Below, one piece after another: positions 471 to 31,683 of a stretch of 36,187 nt of DNA; the stretch's first letter is position 1; each line of letters starts with the position of its first letter. This DNA is from a virus (taxonomy: Duplodnaviria; Caudoviricetes). Under the pieces are notes generated by a model. The model ran no database searches, had not been told where the DNA came from, and saw nothing but the letters and a program-made list of their open reading frames with translations. The stretch lies in the IMG/VR virus record IMGVR_UViG_3300036975_000041, positions 1-36,187 of that record; one strand, given 5' to 3'. The position numbers and the translations under genes are program-made.

Positions 471-1597
471 TGACATTCCCTTTGAAAATAGTAGGACTTT
501 TGAAAAGTAAAGTCGAACCTGTTGATCAAATTGTAATAACAACAAATCAAAGTAGTTTACAAACTGTTGGTATTACTCTTGCATTCTCAACGGGAACGTT
601 AACAGTTGATTGGGATGACGGATCAGCAAATGAGAATTTCACAACAGGAGTTGAAAAAACAAAAAACTACGCTGGTACAGGTACTTATGAGATAAAAATT
701 TCAGGTGATTTAACTGAAATAACCAGATTTATTGCTGACAATAGTAGAATAACAAGTATTACAGGGCTAAAGACAGGATTATTAACTGATTTCAGGATAA
801 ATGACAACTTGTATTCTGGCACATTAGATATGTCAAATGCACCAGTTAGTGGCTTATTTCATATTCACGTAAATGCGGGTTTATCTGGAATTATATCTGC
901 AAGTTCAGGAAATGGCACCCTGAACGATGTTAGGTTATATGGGACTTCCATAACATCGTTAGATTTAAACACTCCTGATATACCTATAAGCGGTATATTT
1001 TTTGGACCAAACAATGCTAGCTTTACCAGTATTTCATTCGCTAGTTCTGGTAATGGTACTTTGACCTATTTTACGATGAGTTCTACAGGTTTAACATCGT
1101 TAGATTTAAACACTCCTGATATACCTATAAGTGGTATATTTTCAATAAGAAATGGAAGCTTAACATCGATTGATTTTGCGAATGCTGGAAATGGGTCAGT
1201 TTCACAAATGTATTTAGACAATAACGATTTAATATTTATAGATTTTAAAGATATTTCATTTGCAGGAATCACTAGATTATGGATATATTCTAATTTTACT
1301 CTAGGTGATATAGACATTAGTGGAGTTTCTGGAAATATTAATTCATTTAGAGGATATAGTTGTGATTTGACTAATATCGATTTTTCTGGATTAAGTACTC
1401 CGATAAATCCGGAGGTAAGTATTCAAAGTAATAACATGACATCAACAGAAGTTGACGATCAAATAATTAATCTTGACAATACAGGATGGATTAATGGAAT
1501 CCTTAATATTGCGGGAACAAACGCAGCAAGAACAAGTGCAAGCGATACGGCTTATAATAATTTAATTGCAAATGGTTGGACAATAACAGTTAATTAA
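470..1597 (+). CDS. Putative tail fibre/adhesin with N-terminal PKD-like segment and LRR-like solenoid repeats
   Basis: TVDWDDGS...KNYAGTGTYEIKISG (PKD-like), then repeated 'lTSLDLntPdiPISGIF...tSIsFAssGNGTL' units and C-terminal 'AYNNLIANGWTITVN'. Confidence 0.6.
   Translation: MTFPLKIVGLLKSKVEPVDQIVITTNQSSLQTVGITLAFSTGTLTVDWDDGSANENFTTGVEKTKNYAGTGTYEIKISGDLTEITRFIADNSRITSITGLKTGLLTDFRINDNLYSGTLDMSNAPVSGLFHIHVNAGLSGIISASSGNGTLNDVRLYGTSITSLDLNTPDIPISGIFFGPNNASFTSISFASSGNGTLTYFTMSSTGLTSLDLNTPDIPISGIFSIRNGSLTSIDFANAGNGSVSQMYLDNNDLIFIDFKDISFAGITRLWIYSNFTLGDIDISGVSGNINSFRGYSCDLTNIDFSGLSTPINPEVSIQSNNMTSTEVDDQIINLDNTGWINGILNIAGTNAARTSASDTAYNNLIANGWTITVN
951..1142 (+). repeat. Intragenic direct repeat, 51 bp x2 (951-1001 and 1092-1142), 1 mismatch, period 141 bp
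   Basis: taacatcgttagatttaaacactcctgatatacctataag(c/t)ggtatatttt read at both positions. Confidence 0.95.
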
Positions 1598-6787: not shown

Positions 6788-6829
6788 TGGGTAACATTTT
6801 CAACACAAACACTATTAATATTTAGAACT

Positions 6830-7051
6830 ATGCCAAGAGAAGAAGACCTGCCTCCATCAAAAAGAGGGCAATTAGAAAATGAAATTACAAGTGAGACGCT
6901 AAAATTTCATGAAGAAGTCGGACAAAATCAACTATTTGTCCACAAAACTGATAAACAAAAGATTGATTATTTAATAACATATTTTATTAAGAATCAGTCA
7001 ATTATGAAATTACAAATTGAATACTTGCTTGAAAAAGTTTCTCAAAGATAA
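6830..7051 (+). CDS. Hypothetical protein
   Basis: 73 aa ORF with ATG after an AT-rich leader. Confidence 0.5.
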   Translation: MPREEDLPPSKRGQLENEITSETLKFHEEVGQNQLFVHKTDKQKIDYLITYFIKNQSIMKLQIEYLLEKVSQR

Positions 7052-7451
7052 CTGGATAGGACTGATTTTGTTCTTACTTTATTTCATGACCGAAATCGGG
7101 TATTTAGCTTTTTCTGAAATCCATTTTAAGACAAAGATAGTCAATGGATGTGCTAAGGAAATAATGTTAAATACTCCGGTTTACTATTTTAGTTTAGCTG
7201 TCAAGAATTTGTTTATGATTTCGGTTATTCTAATTTTAGTCTGGAAAATAAGGTCACTAAAAGCAATAACATGCGGATTGATGACATGGGATATTAGGGA
7301 GCTTTATCAAGAATTTTGTTACTTGGCTGGTTATAATGAAGATGTATTAAATATCGAAGTGGGTTTAATTGGTCAAGTATTAATAGTATGTGTTGTCATA
7401 ATAGCTGTATATGTGTTGGATTATTTCAAATCGCCTTACAAGCGGGGATAG
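7017..7451 (+). CDS. Multi-pass membrane protein, possible holin
   Basis: 3-4 hydrophobic segments and a basic C-terminus; function inferred only. Confidence 0.45.
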   Translation: MNTCLKKFLKDNWIGLILFLLYFMTEIGYLAFSEIHFKTKIVNGCAKEIMLNTPVYYFSLAVKNLFMISVILILVWKIRSLKAITCGLMTWDIRELYQEFCYLAGYNEDVLNIEVGLIGQVLIVCVVIIAVYVLDYFKSPYKRG

Positions 7452-10900: not shown

Positions 10901-10964
10901 AGTTGAAGATATTACTAAAGAAATAGCTAAGAAAGTTGAGGTTGTTGATAATTCAAAAGTATAA
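7923..10964 (+). CDS. Tail tape measure protein
   Basis: 1013 aa helical Ala/Glu/Lys-rich; NIGNY motif, ANPVVLVLAAIVAGL hydrophobic patch, C-terminal 'AVQAGIVASKQPPKFKKG...GGSHESG' typical of Bacteroidota phage TMPs. Confidence 0.85.
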   Translation: MADEQIIVDIEVDSDEVKKAEKRIDELTDSIEELAAKIKDAKNRNAEFQAKVNKLNDELADGNITIEERNKELEKLIKQQHKDNVFIAESTVELQKQKRERTANIKVIQSEENSRERLRQRVALLTKEYNSLNLETVEGRKRSEQLQKELKQLNEELNEGSKAAGNFKDNIGNYPEAAEGAIISLQGVGDGMEQVGGSSAQAVGGIKTLGNAFKALLANPVVLVLAAIVAGLSALFSAFKKSASGARIMDKASAVLDGTMAVLTKKMNELGEAAEQSFKKGEDGTVGFWEALKKNVVYKFQSVIELFKAVGDGLKALWEGNTEAIEKASEKAKEALIGIVTGQTSEQLEKIADKFKETAKEANELTQAFLKLADAQLKGRASARNLEKGIAQTSAELERLTEIAGDDTRAMSEQREAAIKAGEVAQKLAMQEKALAGTRLALINQEVAVRRSAGQDIQDLLDEQADAYLAYVDAQSRAAVAAQKIAIEQRKIERDIFEQNLDILIDVGDKIKTEREKQIQDESLSLDKRKQLLEGARAALEANFDAIKKEYELYGVTAEQINEVISASDAKQANEKLKALGLNEIANNRLREIILERRQAELDFNDLQKDLSDEEISRKEKANDKIQQINEDRILSQIDNEEELKNKLIELEEAKRKSLLQSKILTKEERQAILENETLTDDEKKTLLEDKTLLEEEKQAIILESEEKIKEIENEFADKKEEKEKEKLKRRKELIQESLDNIVSITEKFAGKEAALFGKIAVNIGKAFEDGKLTATEAINGITSITQASFDAIQERRDIDLQNIELKRQKELELAGDNLEAQVEINRRYDREAAVIKLKQFKADKAKALVDIAIQTAVAVVKALPNVPLSITIGALGAVQAGIVASKQPPKFKKGVNDIVSIGGSHESGRDVDVFGVSGNQTQYFGKVEKGEVMPVIRKSAINDYMIAKLNGSFSPNKRIFQTGTPDITNVNQQSLSAEDIAAAFKLINLSVKVEDITKEIAKKVEVVDNSKV

Positions 10965-11018
10965 CATTCGTTAAAAATGCATTAAAACGCATTTTAGCTC
11001 AGTGTTATAAACAAGTGC
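10956..11018 (-). other. attC/dif-like palindromic site A (short form); may double as bidirectional terminator
   Basis: Minus strand: GCACTT GTTTATAAC actga GCTAAAATGC GTTTTAAT GCATTTTTAAC gaat GTTATACTTT; homologous to sites at 29932-30001 and 30477-30543. Confidence 0.7.
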
Positions 11019-11102: not shown

Positions 11103-11375
11103 TTAGAATAAAGAACCCTGGTTAATTTTCTTAGCTTCTTCAATTTCTAATGCTCTGTTTAAAAAATGTAATCCAATTTCAGGGTCTACCAAATTTCTGA
11201 GTATTTGTATTTTATTGTGTTTTATTGGCACACCTTTTAAATTAAAGCCATATCTTCCATTAGTTACTGTTTGTTCCGAAATTGGCTTTTCGGGTTCAAC
11301 ATGTAATTTATGTACAAAAAAGTTACACCAAAAATAATACCTGCCAATTTCAACGGTAGGTCTTACTAATGGCTC
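11103..11375 (-). pseudogene. C-terminal remnant (90 codons, no start) of a phage-type DNA (cytosine-5) methyltransferase
   Basis: My translation: EPLVRPTVEIGRYYFWCNFF...KIQILRNLVDPEIGLHFLNRALEIEEAKKINQGSLF*. EPL...GRxYFWxNF and RNxVDPExG match the C-terminal half of small phage C5 MTases; the 5' half is replaced by a 62-bp duplication. Not in the ORF track. Confidence 0.7.
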
Positions 11376-12226
11376 AATCGACCTTTTCTATCTTGCCTTC
11401 TTTTTGAAGTTGTTCCAATGCTGTATTCATTTCTTTCCAGAATTATTTTTTGCCACCCCGCCTCAGTTTTTTCAAAACTGTAAAGGTTAAAAAACTCGTT
11501 TATTGTTTTCCCACTTAACCACCATTGCATAGCTGTTTCACCATCTCCATTAGTTGCACAAGTGAGCTTCCATTGTGGGTTATTTGCCATGCCCTTTGTA
11601 ATTGCTTTTTTAATAGCTGTGTAATATTTTGGGTACAAGTCAAATTCTGCTTGCCTTGCTCCTTTTCTACTTACCAAAGGGCAACCAACACAGCCGAGTC
11701 TACACGCACCAGTTTTATAGTGAGGTGCAAGTTCAATATTGTGCTTGTCTATAAACTCATATACATCATCATCTTCCCAGTCGTATATTGGGTATATATG
11801 TTGTGCTCCATTTTGCCACTTTCGGTTATCGCATTGTACATAGTCTCGGTTTTGTCTTTTACGACTTTCTACTGCCCTCACTCCCTCAAATACGTTTTTA
11901 CCAACAGAACCATACTCTTTTAAAAATTCGCAACAGTATCTATTTAATCTTGTTGGCAACCCTTTACGCTCTACAAGTTGATAAAAACTCTCATTTGGGT
12001 GCAGTATTTTTGTGTGTGGGTAAAATGTTCTTATATGTTTAATCGTACCCCTAGGGTCAATAGTGGTGTTTGTATAATAGCTATCAACTTCGGTTCTTAT
12101 TCCTGCAAGTTCAATCAGTTTATCAACTACTGCACTATCTTTACCACCACTATTGCCACTATGCAAGTTAGGCATATTTCGGTGTATCGTTTTTATAAAC
12201 TTTATCGCTTTATTTTCTAATATCAT
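11366..12226 (-). CDS. Phosphoadenosine phosphosulfate (PAPS) reductase family protein, likely Fe-S; C-terminus altered
   Basis: SGGKDS PP-loop, RYCCEFLK, GVRAVES..R, YPIYDW, RLGCVGCP. Likely start ATG 12226 (track uses 12259). The last ~23 aa are read from the duplicated 62-bp segment. Confidence 0.85.
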   Translation of the reverse strand: MILENKAIKFIKTIHRNMPNLHSGNSGGKDSAVVDKLIELAGIRTEVDSYYTNTTIDPRGTIKHIRTFYPHTKILHPNESFYQLVERKGLPTRLNRYCCEFLKEYGSVGKNVFEGVRAVESRKRQNRDYVQCDNRKWQNGAQHIYPIYDWEDDDVYEFIDKHNIELAPHYKTGACRLGCVGCPLVSRKGARQAEFDLYPKYYTAIKKAITKGMANNPQWKLTCATNGDGETAMQWWLSGKTINEFFNLYSFEKTEAGWQKIILERNEYSIGTTSKRRQDRKGRLSH

Positions 12227-12411
12227 AAAAAACCCTCCATAAAAAATAATTTTTAACATTCGTTTTTCAAATCAAAGTCGGTGCGTAATTGTCGCACAGG
12301 TCATATTACTATTCGTTATACTTTAATCCTAAAAGAAACATTACTACAGCAATCGACCTTTTCTATCTTGCCTTCTTTTTGAAGTTGTTCCAATGCTGTA
12401 TTCATTTCTTT
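11375..12411. repeat. Perfect 62-bp direct repeat (11375-11436 and 12350-12411)
   Basis: caatcgaccttttctatcttgccttctttttgaagttgttccaatgctgtattcatttcttt at both positions. Confidence 0.97.
12250..12324 (-). other. attC/dif-like site A0 at the head of the minus-strand accessory block (atypical)
   Basis: Minus strand: AAAGTATAAC gaata GTAATATGAC ct GTGCG acaatta CGCAC ... ttgaaaAAC gaat GTTAaaaa. AAAGTATAAC is the exact complement of the far end of site A; AACGAATGTTA is shared with sites A and D. Confidence 0.5.
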
Positions 12412-18435: not shown

Positions 18436-18494
18436 TTTGGTCAATATTAAAATAGTTCGTATATTTGAACTATAAAACAATTAAAAATTAGCAA
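18436..18494 (+). promoter_or_regulatory. Early promoter/operator copy 1
   Basis: TTTG(18436-39)-N20-TATATTTG(18460-67); the -7 box lies inside inverted repeat ATAGTTC-N8-GAACTAT; 18450-18494 is identical to 19726-19770. Confidence 0.8.
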
Positions 18495-18883: not shown

Positions 18884-18941
18884 AAAAAAGAGTAAGCCGA
18901 AAATCTTAAAAAGAGTAGGCCAAAGTGACAAATTAATAATT

Positions 18942-19709: not shown

Positions 19710-19770
19710 ATTGCTTATACGTTAGAAATAGTTCGTATATTTGAACTATAAAACAATTAAAAATTAGCAA
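19710..19770 (+). promoter_or_regulatory. Early promoter/operator copy 2
   Basis: 45-bp exact repeat (19726-19770) of 18450-18494, including TATATTTG and the inverted repeat. Confidence 0.8.
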
Positions 19771-20101: not shown

Positions 20102-20235
20102 AAGAACTATTAAAAAAAGCAATAAAAAGAAATCAAGAAACAAACGAGCGCCTTTCTTTAGCCTTACACAAGCAAAAAGAGTTTGAAGCTGAAAAAGAAG
20201 AAAACAAAATTAATTGGATAATCGAAAATCATTAA
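20098..20235 (+). CDS. Small hypothetical protein (45 aa)
   Basis: ATGA overlap with the upstream stop; MKELLKKAIKRNQETNERL...; below the ORF-track cutoff. Confidence 0.5.
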   Translation: MKELLKKAIKRNQETNERLSLALHKQKEFEAEKEENKINWIIENH

Positions 20236-20240
20236 TAATT

Positions 20241-21050
20241 ATGAAAACAATTTATTTACAAGACGAAAATTTTGAATGGAAAAAATTTGAATATGAAAAT
20301 ATTTCAGATTTGTCTAGTGAATTTGAAAAAAGTAATATAAAACTTGGTAACTGGTGCAAACTTGGTGACGAGTGCGAACTCGGTAACTCTGCCGAAATCG
20401 GATACTTTGCCGAAATCGGGGACTTTGCCAAAATCGGGGACTCTGCCAAAATCGGATACTTTGCCGAAATCGGGGACTCTGCCAAAATCGGGGACTCTGC
20501 CAAAATCGGGGACTCTGCCAAAATCGGGGACTCTGCCAAAATCGGATACTCTGCCGAAATCGGGGACTCTGCCGAAATCGGTAACTCTGCCAAAATCGGT
20601 AACTCTGCCAAAATCGGATACTTTGCCAAAATCGGATACTCTGCCGAAATCGGGGACTCTGCCGAAATCGGTAACTCTGCCGAAATCGGATACTTTGCCA
20701 AAATCGGATACTTTGCCGAAATCGGGGACTCTGCCGAAATCGGATACTTTGCCGAAATCGGGGACTCTGCCAAAATCGGGGACTCTGCCAAAATCGGATA
20801 CTTTGCCGAAATCGGGGACGAAATTAAAATAATAAGAGGGCTATTTATTTTAGGATCAAAACATCAGTTAACATATACAGGCAATAGCACTATTTCAATA
20901 GGATGCCACAATATGACTATAAAAGAATGGTTAAAAAATGGCTTAGAAATAGCAAAAAAAGAAGGATATTCAGAAAATGAAATTACTGAATATAAAATGT
21001 ATATTAATTTAATTAAACGATTTAAAAAGTTACATTATGAAACAAGATAA
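20241..21050 (+). CDS. Hexapeptide-repeat (left-handed beta-helix) protein
   Basis: 24 units of A(E/K)IG(D/Y/N)(S/F) plus 3 degenerate units; C-terminal 'ISIGCH...EW' domain; ATG 20241 preferred. Confidence 0.85.
   Translation: MKTIYLQDENFEWKKFEYENISDLSSEFEKSNIKLGNWCKLGDECELGNSAEIGYFAEIGDFAKIGDSAKIGYFAEIGDSAKIGDSAKIGDSAKIGDSAKIGYSAEIGDSAEIGNSAKIGNSAKIGYFAKIGYSAEIGDSAEIGNSAEIGYFAKIGYFAEIGDSAEIGYFAEIGDSAKIGDSAKIGYFAEIGDEIKIIRGLFILGSKHQLTYTGNSTISIGCHNMTIKEWLKNGLEIAKKEGYSENEITEYKMYINLIKRFKKLHYETR
20391..20822 (+). repeat. Tandem array of 24 x 18-bp units
   Basis: Consensus GCC(G/A)AAATCGG(GG/AT/TA)ACT(C/T)T, counted directly. Confidence 0.97.
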
Positions 21051-21562: not shown

Positions 21563-21856
21563 ATGAAATGTAAAATTTGTGGTCGTGAAACGAGAAAAGA
21601 CAGGCCGGTATGTATTGGATGTTATTCTCTGAGGGAGGTTGTCAAAAAAAAGGACAAAGCCCCTAAAAGTAAAGTAGAAAAAGCTACTAATCATTTATTA
21701 AAAAATCCAGGTTTAACGATAATTAGCTGGATAATACCTCCGGTACACCTTCAAAAATCGAAAAATGGAGGTTATAAATTAAAAGATGGAAGACATAGGG
21801 TTTGTGCATATAAATTGCTAGGGATAAAGTCAATTAAGGCAAAAAAAGCGTTTTAA
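21563..21856 (+). CDS. Zn-finger protein with ParB/sulfiredoxin-like motif
   Basis: CxxC-X10-CxxC N-terminus; PPVHL...YKLKDGRHRVCAYKLLG. Confidence 0.6.
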   Translation: MKCKICGRETRKDRPVCIGCYSLREVVKKKDKAPKSKVEKATNHLLKNPGLTIISWIIPPVHLQKSKNGGYKLKDGRHRVCAYKLLGIKSIKAKKAF

Positions 21857-21924
21857 TGATTTTTTTTGAATGTTATATTAAAAATACGTTAGAAAATAAT
21901 TATTAATTTTGAAAAAAAATAACT

Positions 21925-29021: not shown

Positions 29022-29435
29022 ATGAAATTTCTAGTTAAAAAACAGTTTGGGAAACTTATTCCGGTTTATAATTCTGATGCTGAAAAGTTAAAAGCTTGTA
29101 AGCTTAAAGAAGGTGAGGTTTACGAAGTTGAGATAAAGAAAAAAAGGAATTACGAATTTCATAAGAAGTATTTTGCCTTGATTAATCTTTGTTATGACAA
29201 TCAAGATGTATTTGATGAGTTTGACAATCTAAGAGATTATTTAACCTGCAAATCTGGTTTTTATATAAAAATAACTACTCCAGATGGAGAAATGATAAAA
29301 CCAAAGTCAATAAGCTTTGCAAATATGGATAATATCGAATTTGAGCAATTATATCAGAAGACAATCGGTGCCATTTGTAAGTTTATTGATGTTGAAGAAA
29401 AAGACATTTTAGATGAAATTGTTAATTATATGTAA
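29022..29435 (+). CDS. DUF1367-like phage protein
   Basis: KRNYEFHKKYFAL and PKSISFANMD..EFEQLY motifs; its stop lies in the ATGTAAC box. Confidence 0.7.
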   Translation: MKFLVKKQFGKLIPVYNSDAEKLKACKLKEGEVYEVEIKKKRNYEFHKKYFALINLCYDNQDVFDEFDNLRDYLTCKSGFYIKITTPDGEMIKPKSISFANMDNIEFEQLYQKTIGAICKFIDVEEKDILDEIVNYM

Positions 29436-29492
29436 CGGGCTTGTGGTATGAAACCGACACCACCACAGTAATAATTTTAATTTGAAAACGAA
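29427..29492 (+). other. attC/dif-like half site B0 at the head of the second accessory block
   Basis: TATATGTAAC (29427-36) pairs, with two G-T pairs, with GTTATGTATA (30534-43) at the far end; followed by GGTATGAAAC and the shared tttgaaaacgaa motif. Confidence 0.45.
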
Positions 29493-29945
29493 ATGGAAGC
29501 AAAAAATTTTAGAATAGGAAACTTCGTAAATCTCAAAAACTGGCAAGATGAAATAAGTTTTTTTGGTGAATTTGATATATCGCAAAAAGGATTAGATAAA
29601 CTGGTAAAAACAGGCGATGGAAACGCTATGATATTAACTATTACAAGTAAAGAACTTGAGCTTTTAGCTTATGGTTGTGAATTAGATTTTTATAGTTACA
29701 AAGAAATATTGCCAATAAAAATTACTGAAAAATGGCTTATTGATTTAGGGTTTAATAAATTCCCCGGAAGCGGACAGTTGTTCGATACTGATGATTTTTG
29801 GTCTGGCAGACTTATAAATGAAGGTTTTTTTGAGATTTCACACTTAGAATTAACGTTGAAGTATGTTCATGATTTGCAGAATGTTTTTTTTGCGTTAACC
29901 GGTAGAGAACTTCAATTGAAAAACGAATGTAGCACTTGTGGTTAA
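29493..29945 (+). CDS. Hypothetical phage protein (candidate cassette cargo)
   Basis: FRIGN...PIKITEKWL..LGF...LKYVHDLQNVFFALTGREL pattern of Bacteroidota phage hypotheticals; stop within site C. Confidence 0.7.
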   Translation: MEAKNFRIGNFVNLKNWQDEISFFGEFDISQKGLDKLVKTGDGNAMILTITSKELELLAYGCELDFYSYKEILPIKITEKWLIDLGFNKFPGSGQLFDTDDFWSGRLINEGFFEISHLELTLKYVHDLQNVFFALTGRELQLKNECSTCG

Positions 29946-30001
29946 ACGATGGGTGTAAACTGTCGTTTTAATGCGGTTTTACCCCGTGTTAGCTGCTGGG
30001 C
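29932..30001 (+). other. attC/dif-like palindromic site C (short form)
   Basis: GCACTT GTGGTTAAAC gatg GGTGTAAACTGTC GTTTTAAT GCGGTTTTACC ccgt GTTAGCTGCTGGGC. Confidence 0.7.
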
Positions 30002-30090
30002 GTGAAATTAGCAGATACTTCAATTGAAATACAAAAATAAAAAGTGAAGGGTACGGCTTACTGACCCATTAATTAAATACATTTTACAAA

Positions 30091-30420
30091 ATGGAAGAAA
30101 AGCAAATTAAATTTGAGAGCTGGGCAATAGTTGAGTTATTTGGACACAACCAACTTGCCGGAAAAGTAACAACTGAAAACATAGCCGGACAGGAATTTGT
30201 ACGGATAGATGTTCCAAAAACAACTAAAGTGCCAGCTTTTACTAAGTACCATTTACCAAGTGCAGTTTATGGATTAACGCCAGTTGATGAAGATTACGCA
30301 ACCCGTATGGCTGACAGGATTAATGCACAGCCTATAAACGATTATAAGCATAACGAAGTAATCCGTGAGATTATTAAAGAAAAGCTGGCAGAAATGGGGA
30401 CGAAAGCACTTGATTTTTAA
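30091..30420 (+). CDS. Hypothetical phage protein (candidate cassette cargo)
   Basis: WAIVELFGH..LAG.V..E.IAG..FVRIDVP; lies between sites C and D. Confidence 0.7.
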   Translation: MEEKQIKFESWAIVELFGHNQLAGKVTTENIAGQEFVRIDVPKTTKVPAFTKYHLPSAVYGLTPVDEDYATRMADRINAQPINDYKHNEVIREIIKEKLAEMGTKALDF

Positions 30421-30476
30421 TTGCGGGTGGGGCTTTTTGTTTTCTCCGCATCCGCACGATGTTGATTAAATGAACT

Positions 30477-30543
30477 GCCCCAGCCTTGCAGCTAACGTTG
30501 AGCTAAACAACGTTTTAATGTTGTTTAACGAATGTTATGTATA
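30477..30543 (+). other. attC/dif-like palindromic site D (short form)
   Basis: GCCCCAGCCTT GCAGCTAAC gttga GCTAAACAAC GTTTTAAT GTTGTTTAAC gaat GTTATGTATA. Confidence 0.75.
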
Positions 30544-30583: not shown

Positions 30584-30850
30584 ATGAGTATGTTTTATAT
30601 TATTTTTTCAATAGCATTTATAGTTATGGTAATTTGGGTTATTTATTTGCTAATAACAAGAAATGAAAAACCAAAAGAACATATCGATGGTAAGACACTT
30701 ATTGAATTATTAGTAATCGGACAAACTGAAATGACCGATTCAGATAAGATAGTATGGATTTCAAAACTTATTAACCAGGTTGATTTCACAAAACTTGAAA
30801 TTTGGCAGGTGCATGGATTTTTTAATTTAATAAACAGGATAAAAAGATGA
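30584..30850 (+). CDS. Membrane-anchored hypothetical protein
   Basis: N-terminal TM helix from ATG 30584; the track's upstream extension runs through site D. Confidence 0.55.
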   Translation: MSMFYIIFSIAFIVMVIWVIYLLITRNEKPKEHIDGKTLIELLVIGQTEMTDSDKIVWISKLINQVDFTKLEIWQVHGFFNLINRIKR

Positions 30851-31020
30851 AAAAAGACACAGAAGTAACATTTATTATTTACCCAGTTCATAAAAACGGG
30901 ATGCAAGCCTCTGGAATTGCAGTTAGTATAAAAGATAGCAAAGCGGCATATTCGCAGGCATTAGCTGAAGCCAAATTAAGAAGTAGGCTATCTGATTTCC
31001 CTGAATGGTCATTTTATTAA
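30847..31020 (+). CDS. Small hypothetical protein (57 aa)
   Basis: MKKDTEVTFIIYPVHKNGMQASGIAVSIKD...; ATGA overlap. Confidence 0.55.
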   Translation: MKKDTEVTFIIYPVHKNGMQASGIAVSIKDSKAAYSQALAEAKLRSRLSDFPEWSFY

Positions 31021-31150
31021 AATAACGGAAATAATATTAGCTGATTGCCCAACCAAAATAGTAGAAACTTAATAAAATATACAGACTTATGAGAACAAAT
31101 AAACTTTCAAAAAAGCTCGGCAATTTGCCTATATTTAGTGTTATAGCTAG
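31019..31150 (+). other. attC-like site E (long form, ~70-nt spacer)
   Basis: ATAAC ggaaat AATATTAGC tg ATTGCC ... GGCAAT tt GCCTATATT tagt GTTAT; the arms pair imperfectly. Confidence 0.5.
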
Positions 31151-31190
31151 TTTTTTGCGGGCTGACTTACACCGAGCAAACATTTTTATT

Positions 31191-31221
31191 TTTGCTAATT
31201 ATGTTATATTTTGTAACTTTG
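31191..31221 (+). promoter_or_regulatory. Bacteroidota promoter for the terminase/tail operon
   Basis: TTTG(31191-94)-N19-TAACTTTG(31214-21). Confidence 0.7.
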
Positions 31222-31242
31222 TACGGATAAAATATAAAAGCT

Positions 31243-31683
31243 ATGGGAGCGCCTTATGGTAATCAATTTGCAATAGGTAATAACGGAGGACAACCACCTA
31301 TTTATAAGAATGCAGAAGAGTTAAAAGAGGGCATAAATGCATATTTTACTGAGCAGCCAGATAAAAGAAATGTTATAGTAGGGGATAGTATTATAGAAGC
31401 ACCTATCTATACAATGACAGGGTTAGCATTATTCTTAGGTTTTGCAAGCCGACAAAGCCTTTATGACTACGCAAAACGAGATGAGTACTCTTACTTAATA
31501 AAAAGAGCACAAACTTTTATTGAAAGAGAATATGAAAAAAAACTACAAGAGGCGAGTTGTACAGGAGCTATATTTGCCTTAAAAAACATGGGATGGACAG
31601 ATTCAAAAGATATTACCTCTGGAGGTGAAAAAATAAACACCTCAGAAATGATAGTTAAGATAGTTGATGGAAAAGAAAAATGA
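31243..31683 (+). CDS. terS: Terminase small subunit (P22 gp3-like)
   Basis: GAPYGNQFA, EL...I.AYF, TGLALFLG, GAIFALKN; adjacent to terL. Confidence 0.8.
   Translation: MGAPYGNQFAIGNNGGQPPIYKNAEELKEGINAYFTEQPDKRNVIVGDSIIEAPIYTMTGLALFLGFASRQSLYDYAKRDEYSYLIKRAQTFIEREYEKKLQEASCTGAIFALKNMGWTDSKDITSGGEKINTSEMIVKIVDGKEK

What the first reader, a model, noticed from the sequence alone, without database searches (positions are those of the whole stretch)
29988..30533. One apparently intact cassette: its two ends are complementary to each other
Seen: GTTAGCTGC (29988-96) at the left end is the exact reverse complement of GCAGCTAAC (30488-96) at the right end, with further TGGG/CCCA pairing past a small bulge. 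Within site C or D alone the outer boxes match only over 3-4 bases. Established: this is the integron signature, since R' and R'' of the same cassette pair only in the excised circle. Inference: the 546-bp unit carrying the single 109-aa ORF was inserted as a circle at G|TT.
Basis: partly seen in the sequence, partly recalled or inferred. Interest (0 to 1): 0.85.

Follow-up and report, generated by a model that had tools for sequence, protein, structure and literature searches.

The report
Mirror-image gene cassette in a phage
A small phage gene sits between two folded-DNA sites with matching ends, as in integron gene cassettes, and was likely moved by a recombinase together with the hairpin in front of it (the mirror image of the textbook layout), while related phages carry the same gene with no such sites or inside a hairpin loop.

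Summary
Observation confirmed: 29988-96 is the exact reverse complement of 30488-96; sites C and D match themselves over only 3 and 4 nt. Across 225 related cargos, 135 have ends complementary over 9 nt or more, against 3-4 within sites and about 4 after shuffling. The gene keeps no neighbour in 15 site-linked copies. So it is a cassette-like unit in an integrase-less array of a Bacteroidota-type phage. New here: of 32 gene copies, 16 are bare, 7 lie inside one hairpin's loop, 8 are ordinary cargo, 1 is a remnant, and the nearest relative carries the same core in a loop. The scan found this system before on other DNA. No recombination was shown.

The parts
29022..29435 (+). NinB-like gene; its TAA stop forms the AA of an AA|C triplet at the left border of the array
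   Evidence: PHROG 319, E 4.8e-34; sequence
29428..29470 (+). B: left half-site-like stretch without a right arm (uncertain; may be a decayed site or a promoter-like motif)
   Evidence: left-half profile score 7.1, above background 99th percentile 4.5; no partner arm within 260 nt; a similar stretch precedes the homologous gene in L311
29493..29945 (+). 150-aa ORF, preceding cargo; its homologue in L311 ends at the equivalent AA|C with no hairpin after it
29939..29996 (+). Site C: short attC-like hairpin (spacers 8/6, loop CGTTTTAATG at 29964); likely the unit's own site; predicted cut 29946|29947
   Evidence: missed by my detector (score 7.9) and not stable alone in DNA folding (z 0.04 and -0.22), identified by alignment to the class
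29988..29996 (+). Left cargo box GTTAGCTGC, start of a common cargo shell
30000..30090 (+). 5' leader, 77% identical (29986-30088) to the loop segment of the giant site in L001
30091..30420 (+). 109-aa gene, native to nin regions of Bacteroidota phages; predicted SH3/Sm-like beta-barrel plus two helices; no Pfam or NCBIfam family
30421..30487 (+). 3' flank, homologous to L001 up to about 30467, ending in the shell motif AGCCTT
30488..30496 (+). Right cargo box GCAGCTAAC; predicted cut 30495|30496
30488..30542 (+). Site D: short attC-like hairpin (spacers 7/6, same loop at 30511); likely belongs to the next unit
   Evidence: (z -2.1 and -1.5)
30584..31020 (+). Next cargo: ORFs of 88 aa (30584-30850) and 57 aa (30847-31020); ends match over 5 nt only
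31018..31148 (+). Site E: long attC-like hairpin; an ATG at 31089 in its loop opens a 57-codon frame
31191..31211 (+). attI-like array end (T at +1, ATA at +7 to +9) but with AAT instead of AAC; similarity to other phages' terS upstream DNA starts at 31199
   Evidence: (host-attI profile score only 0.2); suggestive only

Best explanation
The 109-aa gene is the cargo of an integron-like cassette in a recombinase-less array of a Bacteroidota-type phage, and it was likely inserted by a tyrosine recombinase that cuts folded single-stranded sites at AA|C on the gene-sense strand, so that the mobile unit is likely hairpin C plus the gene (29947-30495). Shown: the sites, the complementary ends, changing neighbours, and the polarity statistics. 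Inferred: the folded plus strand is the recombined strand; in an excised circle the two cargo boxes pair to close hairpin C; new units enter at an attI-like site at the terminase end of the array, so genes face that site and are read from the phage's own early/nin transcript; the enzyme is an Xer-like recombinase without the I2 insert, supplied by the host chromosome or by the missing part of the phage.
For: Ends complementary over 9 nt or more in 135 of 225 cargos versus 4 and 3 within sites and 4.2 (max 10) shuffled. Six of 8 ordinary copies of this gene match at 9-10 of 10 end positions with five different end sequences. No shared neighbour among 15 site-linked copies at E<1e-4. Hosts: 20 of 20 sites found downstream of the recombinase in 17 of 30 Flavobacteriaceae loci have the opposite geometry to phage gene sense, and in 17 of 17 an attI-like GTT matches the next site over 8-10 nt; in phages cargo genes run 171 sense to 5 antisense. 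An attI-like motif follows 17 of 70 undetected downstream partners, 0 of 58 upstream partners, 1 of 368 site edges, 14 of 1782 background. In 38 cargos with the window's shell type, the 12 nt before the left box are conserved (0.66, 15 distinct) and the 12 nt after the right box are not (0.35, 35 distinct). Qi 2023 Table S3 lists the gene-sense strand of the sibling site as the bottom strand.
Against: No recombinase in the contig and no joint or empty allele in the one run that holds this DNA. No close relative of the phage was found to show an empty site (best terS 59% identical). A direct test on homologous cargos was inconclusive (upstream site closer in 5, downstream in 2, of 8 pairs). Site C is not the site type usually found before this shell (32 of 38 have another right edge), so C and the shell were not always together. 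The window's attI-like end has AAT and scores only 0.2 on the host profile. Site C alone folds no better than shuffles. The 38 shell cargos and the 225 cargos are not independent lineages, and my detector misses one site subclass.
Confidence: 0.74

Rival explanations
1. Classical polarity: the unit is gene plus downstream site D, cut at G|TT (29989-30534).
For: End complementarity fits either polarity; both modelled circles fold about equally (-12 to -13.5 kcal/mol). BLASTn similarity to L001 starts 2 nt before the left GTT. In 2 of 8 homologous cargo pairs the downstream site is the closer one. Site C differs from the shell's usual upstream site.
Against: Host polarity 20 of 20, attI-like ends only downstream (17 of 70 vs 0 of 58), upstream site linked to the shell, copies of this gene and of the 150-aa gene that end at AA|C with no hairpin after (L012, L024, L311).
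Confidence: 0.12
2. The sites act as shared linkers for homology- or microhomology-driven module swapping by phage recombination proteins (the nin region encodes NinB and NinG), without a site-specific enzyme acting on this phage.
For: No recombinase in the contig; sites of one class are similar in sequence; the gene core has changed shells, which site-specific exchange at one box does not explain alone; a 62-bp perfect direct repeat flanks another accessory gene in this phage.
Against: Homology-driven swaps do not predict that cargo ends complement each other while own-site ends do not, nor attI-like ends, nor the recombinase-attI-cassette layout in hosts.
Confidence: 0.09
3. Chance match, or an RNA structure (terminator or long-range mRNA pairing) around an ordinary phage gene.
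For: Only 9 nt; D scores as a terminator-like stem (1 found, 1.0 expected).
Against: p about 8e-5; compensatory change against the shell class (all 38 have C/G where the window has G/C); no Rfam match; 16 copies of the gene work without any site.
Confidence: 0.02

Closest known systems
attC clusters without integrase (CALINs) in virulent phages, especially P12002L_attC1 of Polaribacter phage P12002L (Qi et al. 2023, PMC9892861)
   Same: Same short site class with the identical 10-nt loop and box spacing; no integrase in the phage; single accessory genes between sites.
   Different: The paper treats them as ordinary attC for IntI1; this site was the one of six that IntI1 did not recombine. In the text I read it does not describe inverted gene polarity as a rule, attI-like array ends, a dedicated recombinase, or genes inside loops. 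My detector finds 7 such sites in P12002L.
Classical integrons (IntI, attI, attC cassettes; Nivina 2016 PMC5027507, Escudero 2016 PMC4792948, Cury 2016 PMC4889954)
   Same: AAC/GTT outer boxes, inner stem, asymmetric central spacer, variable loop, cargo ends that pair, attI-first arrays in hosts.
   Different: Genes lie on the predicted recombined strand, behind their own site; GTTRRRY in only 29 of 367 sites; no clear extra base near L'' in C or D; candidate recombinase lacks I2 and scores 199-221 bits on TIGR02249, under the 265 cut-off.
rAID-1 arrays of gut Bacteroidales (bioRxiv 10.1101/471110; PMC12247911)
   Same: XerD-family recombinase followed by co-oriented short genes and repeated intergenic motifs 'reminiscent of integrons'.
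   Different: Described in gut bacterial chromosomes with immunity genes; no site anatomy, crossover or phage form in the passages read; identity of its motifs with these sites was not tested (figure S4 not visible).

Membership tests
attC site | Outer boxes with AAC ... GTT | tested here: met
   C, D, E
attC site | Inner L''/L' stem closing a variable loop | tested here: met
   D and E detected with 0 hits in 5 shuffles; C by alignment to the class, weak alone
attC site | Asymmetric unpaired central spacer, longer on the cut side | tested here: met
   8/6, 7/6, 8/6 in the window; 9/6 in 217 of 368 sites; same sense as the bottom strands in Qi Table S3
attC site | Core consensus GTTRRRY | tested here: not met
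   29 of 367 sites; none of the window's three
attC site | Extrahelical bases near L'' | tested here: inconclusive
   None in 229 of 368, on the long-spacer arm in 102, on the other arm in 37 (the detector's gap costs favour the first); none in D, one possible in C
attC site | Recombined as a folded single strand by an integrase | not testable with these tools
   The published sibling P12002L_attC1 was not recombined by IntI1
integron gene cassette | Cargo ends complementary, own-site ends not | tested here: met
   9 versus 3 and 4 nt; 135 of 225
integron gene cassette | Found with different neighbours | tested here: met
   15 site-linked copies, no shared neighbour
integron gene cassette | Gene followed by its own attC (gene on the top strand) | tested here: not met
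   Polarity inverted
integron | IntI with the I2 insert | tested here: not met
   No PF00589 in the 59%-complete contig; host candidates skip model positions 180-237 and stay under cut-off
integron | attI at the array start | tested here: inconclusive
   Candidate at 31191-31211 has the motif but AAT
integron | Pc promoter driving cassettes from attI | tested here: inconclusive
   Sigma-70 scan below chance (5 vs 8.0) and not suited to Bacteroidota; genes face the candidate attI
CALIN | Two or more attC-like sites within a few kb, no integrase nearby | tested here: met
   C, D, E within 1.2 kb
rAID-1 | XerD-like recombinase 5' of the array, over 44% identical to BF9343_RS08045 | not tested
   No recombinase in the window; host candidates were not compared with that protein
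Flavo-1 or other Rfam RNA | Covariance model match | tested here: not met
   No hit at the sites in the window or in 9 related loci
Hfq/Sm proteins (cargo) | Significant structural or profile match | tested here: inconclusive
   Best Foldseek E 0.11; Z 5-6 for many SH3/Sm-like folds

The most novel reading that the evidence does not exclude
This gene records how cassettes are born: an ordinary phage nin-region gene was captured several times into the loop of a ready-made recombination hairpin, and the window's cassette arose when such an in-loop core moved into an ordinary cargo shell, helped by an inner box that had come to look like an outer box (as in L001, 4 of 368 sites). Phages, not chromosomes, would then be the workshop for new cassettes of a Bacteroidota integron-like system run by a recombinase without I2.
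Probability: 0.3. Interest if true: 0.82.

Novelty: new variant of a known kind. Interest (0 to 1): 0.48.

Why it matters
How new integron cassettes are made is stated to be unknown (PMC4889954). Here one gene family is seen bare, inside a hairpin loop and as ordinary cargo, with the nearest pair sharing a core in two different shells, which gives concrete substrates for testing a route. The corrected polarity and the candidate recombinase would also explain why IntI1 failed on the published sibling site and tell an experimenter which junction to look for. As a single locus it is one more case of a system that this scan has already noted in many phages.

Tried and rejected
1) Idea that D is a 'flipped' giant site (inner box acting as outer box): dropped, because 7/6 short sites with this loop are a common class. 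2) Mining reads for a circle or empty allele: only one run holds the DNA, as contigs, and may be its source; no joints. A 732-nt contig of that run carries a C-like hairpin in another context. 3) Empty-site relatives through terS: 80 loci, best 59% identical, none close. 4) Homologous-cargo co-travel test: 8 pairs, inconclusive. 5) First orphan-end counts (15 vs 10; 37 of 184 vs 18 of 168, p 0.018) were inflated by undetected sites; replaced by the motif count. 6) Direction of change between in-loop and ordinary states: trees of 309 columns do not resolve it; window+L001+L006 is not rejected as a clade (p-AU 0.83, group named after seeing the tree), and all ordinary copies as one clade is not rejected either (p-AU 0.17). 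7) Rfam: nothing at the sites. 8) Annotated phage collection: one weak hit of 92 nt. 9) Cargo function: no Pfam/NCBIfam family, PHROG 29525 unknown, Atlas clusters unnamed, no significant fold match. 10) Promoter scan uninformative. Rows left out: loci L046-L096 (distant homologues, under 52% identity) were mostly left out of site scans; L005, L025-L027, L033 (partial genes) and duplicates L009, L028-L031, L038 were left out of the trees; L032, L043, L045 (long branches) were dropped from the second tree.

Full report
Setting. The window is a whole viral contig of 36,187 bp, estimated 59% complete, with no tyrosine recombinase match (0 of 1, PF00589). Profiles give tail, head, primase, NinG, NinB and terminase genes. 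The finding lies between NinB (29022-29435) and terS (31243). The 12 closest genome hits of the cargo gene (64-83% identity) are all labelled Bacteroidota or Balneolota, so the host is likely in Bacteroidota.

Observation. The two 9-mers are at the stated places, each unique, and exactly complementary; own-site matches are 3 nt (C) and 4 nt (D). Chance for six bases beyond the anchor is about 8e-5. I wrote a site detector (0 hits in 5 shuffles of the window; 0 in 138 kb of shuffled loci) and ran it on the viral and metagenome loci fetched up to plus three genome loci: 368 distinct sites and 225 distinct cargos. Cargo ends match over 9 nt or more in 135 of 225, own-site ends in 4 and 3 of 225, shuffled pairs in 4.2 on average, at most 10. 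The detector misses C (score 7.9) and one whole subclass of sites. C and D were placed by alignment in a short class with the loop CGTTTTAATG; about 1100 stored viral stretches hold a 14-base pattern built on this loop, not all of them sites. A third copy lies on the minus strand at 10957-11012.

Mobility. Homologues came from four scans (5, 22, 6 and 63 loci). Among 32 distinct full-length close copies, states read by eye from the flanks are: 8 ordinary cargo between two sites (window, L002, L007, L011, L012, L024, L036, L037), 7 inside the loop of one giant site (L001, L006, L008, L016, L017, L019, L035; the detector recovers five of these), 1 remnant (L042) and 16 with no site (L014, L018 and L044 have one short flank). 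Six of the 8 ordinary copies match at 9-10 of their first 10 end positions with five different sequences; L036 matches at 7 and L011 has lost its right end. The 15 site-linked copies share no neighbour at E<1e-4, while three bare copies lie next to NinG-like genes. The in-loop copies are rejected as one clade (p-AU 0.0005), as are all site-linked copies (0.027); seven ordinary copies form a starred clade that excludes the window, but all eight together are not rejected (0.17). Repeated capture is the simplest reading; repeated loss of sites is not excluded.

Polarity. In five genomes that carry the gene, the best TIGR02249 match skips model positions 180-237 and is under the cut-off; three such proteins pass NF040815 instead. 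Using one of them, 38 of 61 genomes of the same family matched. In the 30 loci fetched, 20 sites were found downstream in 17 loci, all with the geometry opposite to phage gene sense, and in all 17 a GTT 34-135 nt after the stop codon matches the next site over 8-10 nt, with TAT at -9 to -7 in 15. This is an attI-first array, and the cut lies beside the long spacer. In phages the long spacer follows the left AAC and genes run that way in 171 of 176 cargos. Three checks agree. First, the mirror of the attI motif follows 17 of 70 undetected downstream partners, 0 of 58 upstream partners, 1 of 368 site edges and 14 of 1782 background triplets. Second, the window's ends belong to a shell class: of 70 distinct matches to its start, 38 have a partner end, carry 21 protein families and all read C/G where the window reads G/C; the 12 nt before the left box are conserved (0.66) and the 12 nt after the right box are not (0.35), against 0.48 and 0.45 for all sites; over all cargos, alike ends raise upstream-site similarity by about 0.15 and downstream by 0.06-0.08. 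Third, Qi 2023 Table S3 gives the gene-sense strand of P12002L_attC1 as the bottom strand, where AAC is cut (PMC5027507). Against: the direct test on 8 homologous pairs was 5 to 2, and C is not the shell's usual site (32 of 38 have another edge). The unit is therefore likely 29947-30495, and the array likely runs from the NinB stop to an attI-like end near 31199.

Mechanism. Shown: anatomy, covariation, changing neighbours, polarity statistics. From established integron work: folded single-strand recombination at AAC (PMC5027507). Inferred: that an I2-less Xer-like recombinase does this here in trans; that the unit entered as a circle; that genes are expressed from the phage's own transcript. 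Not shown: any recombination. The only run holding this DNA gave contigs without joints.

The nearest relative. L001 (91% protein identity) aligns with the window from 29986 to 30467 at 80%, and weakly to 30496. In L001 that segment is the loop of one site whose arms match a long-site family (L311), and whose inner box reads like an outer box, seen in 4 of 368 sites. The window has the same core inside a cargo-type shell. The left ends differ by a 33-nt block bounded by a 4-nt direct repeat. So the core has changed shells. L006, the next closest (80%), is also in-loop, which favours loop-to-cargo, but the tree does not fix the direction. Cutting at the inner box is rare for IntI1 (1 of 607, PMC4792948).

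Cargo. The model (pLDDT 82) is a five-stranded barrel plus two helices; matches to Sm/Hfq and SH3-like folds are not significant. A small nucleic-acid- or protein-binding accessory role is my guess, no more.

Comparison and novelty. Phage CALINs, including this very site class, are published (PMC9892861; I read parts 1-4 of 7 of the text, covering all main sections, and part 1 of 2 of the supplement). Recombinase-linked integron-like arrays in Bacteroidales are published as rAID-1 (passages only). Cury 2016 concluded that recombinases lacking the IntI domain near attC are not IntI (passages). I also saw passages of PMC5027507, PMC4792948, PMC8618304 and PMC2864571. Nine literature searches (listings only) showed no paper on inverted phage cassettes or genes in attC loops; the library lacks most subscription papers, and Qi's Dryad file, the rAID motif figure and the Flavo-1 supplement were not seen and may bear on this. 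The labels R', R'', L', L'' and 'Xer-like' follow those papers and NCBIfam. The scan's earlier notes describe inverted polarity, in-loop genes, host platforms, phage recombinases and 'shells' on other DNA; none covers this gene or locus.

Verdict.

Noticed in passing
window 11375-11436 and 12350-12411: Perfect 62-bp direct repeat flanking a minus-strand PAPS-reductase-like gene (11366-12259), with a half-site-like stretch before the gene and a short hairpin site at 10957-11012 further on.
   Followed up: partly
window 31089-31262: A 57-codon frame starts inside the loop of site E and reads through its right box.
   Followed up: no
window 21840-21880: Decayed copy of the short site (same loop, right arm and GTT, no left box).
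   Followed up: no
window 18450-18494 and 19726-19770: Identical 45-bp repeats upstream of two early genes, promoter-like.
   Followed up: no
window 18887-18921: Rfam DUF805b RNA, 46.5 bits, above gathering.
   Followed up: no
window 20214-21050: Hexapeptide-repeat protein gene with an 18-bp tandem array.
   Followed up: no
window 951-1001 and 1092-1142: 51-bp direct repeat, 141 bp apart, inside the 375-aa ORF.
   Followed up: no
window 6796-7400: Detector hit for a possible giant hairpin of 587 nt, with weak outer boxes.
   Followed up: no
L016, L017, L019 (after the giant site): The same 10-nt loop also fills empty cargos between outer boxes, so it occurs at both ends of the folded site.
   Followed up: partly
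L042:9930-10000: Keeps the in-loop leader of L016-L019 without the site's boxes, a likely remnant or precursor.
   Followed up: no
L484 (phage P12002L) 30003-39715: Seven detected sites plus one more short-loop site, all on the gene-sense strand, more than the two tested in the paper.
   Followed up: partly
L454-L483: Many host attI-like sites carry a short palindrome just upstream of the GTT.
   Followed up: no
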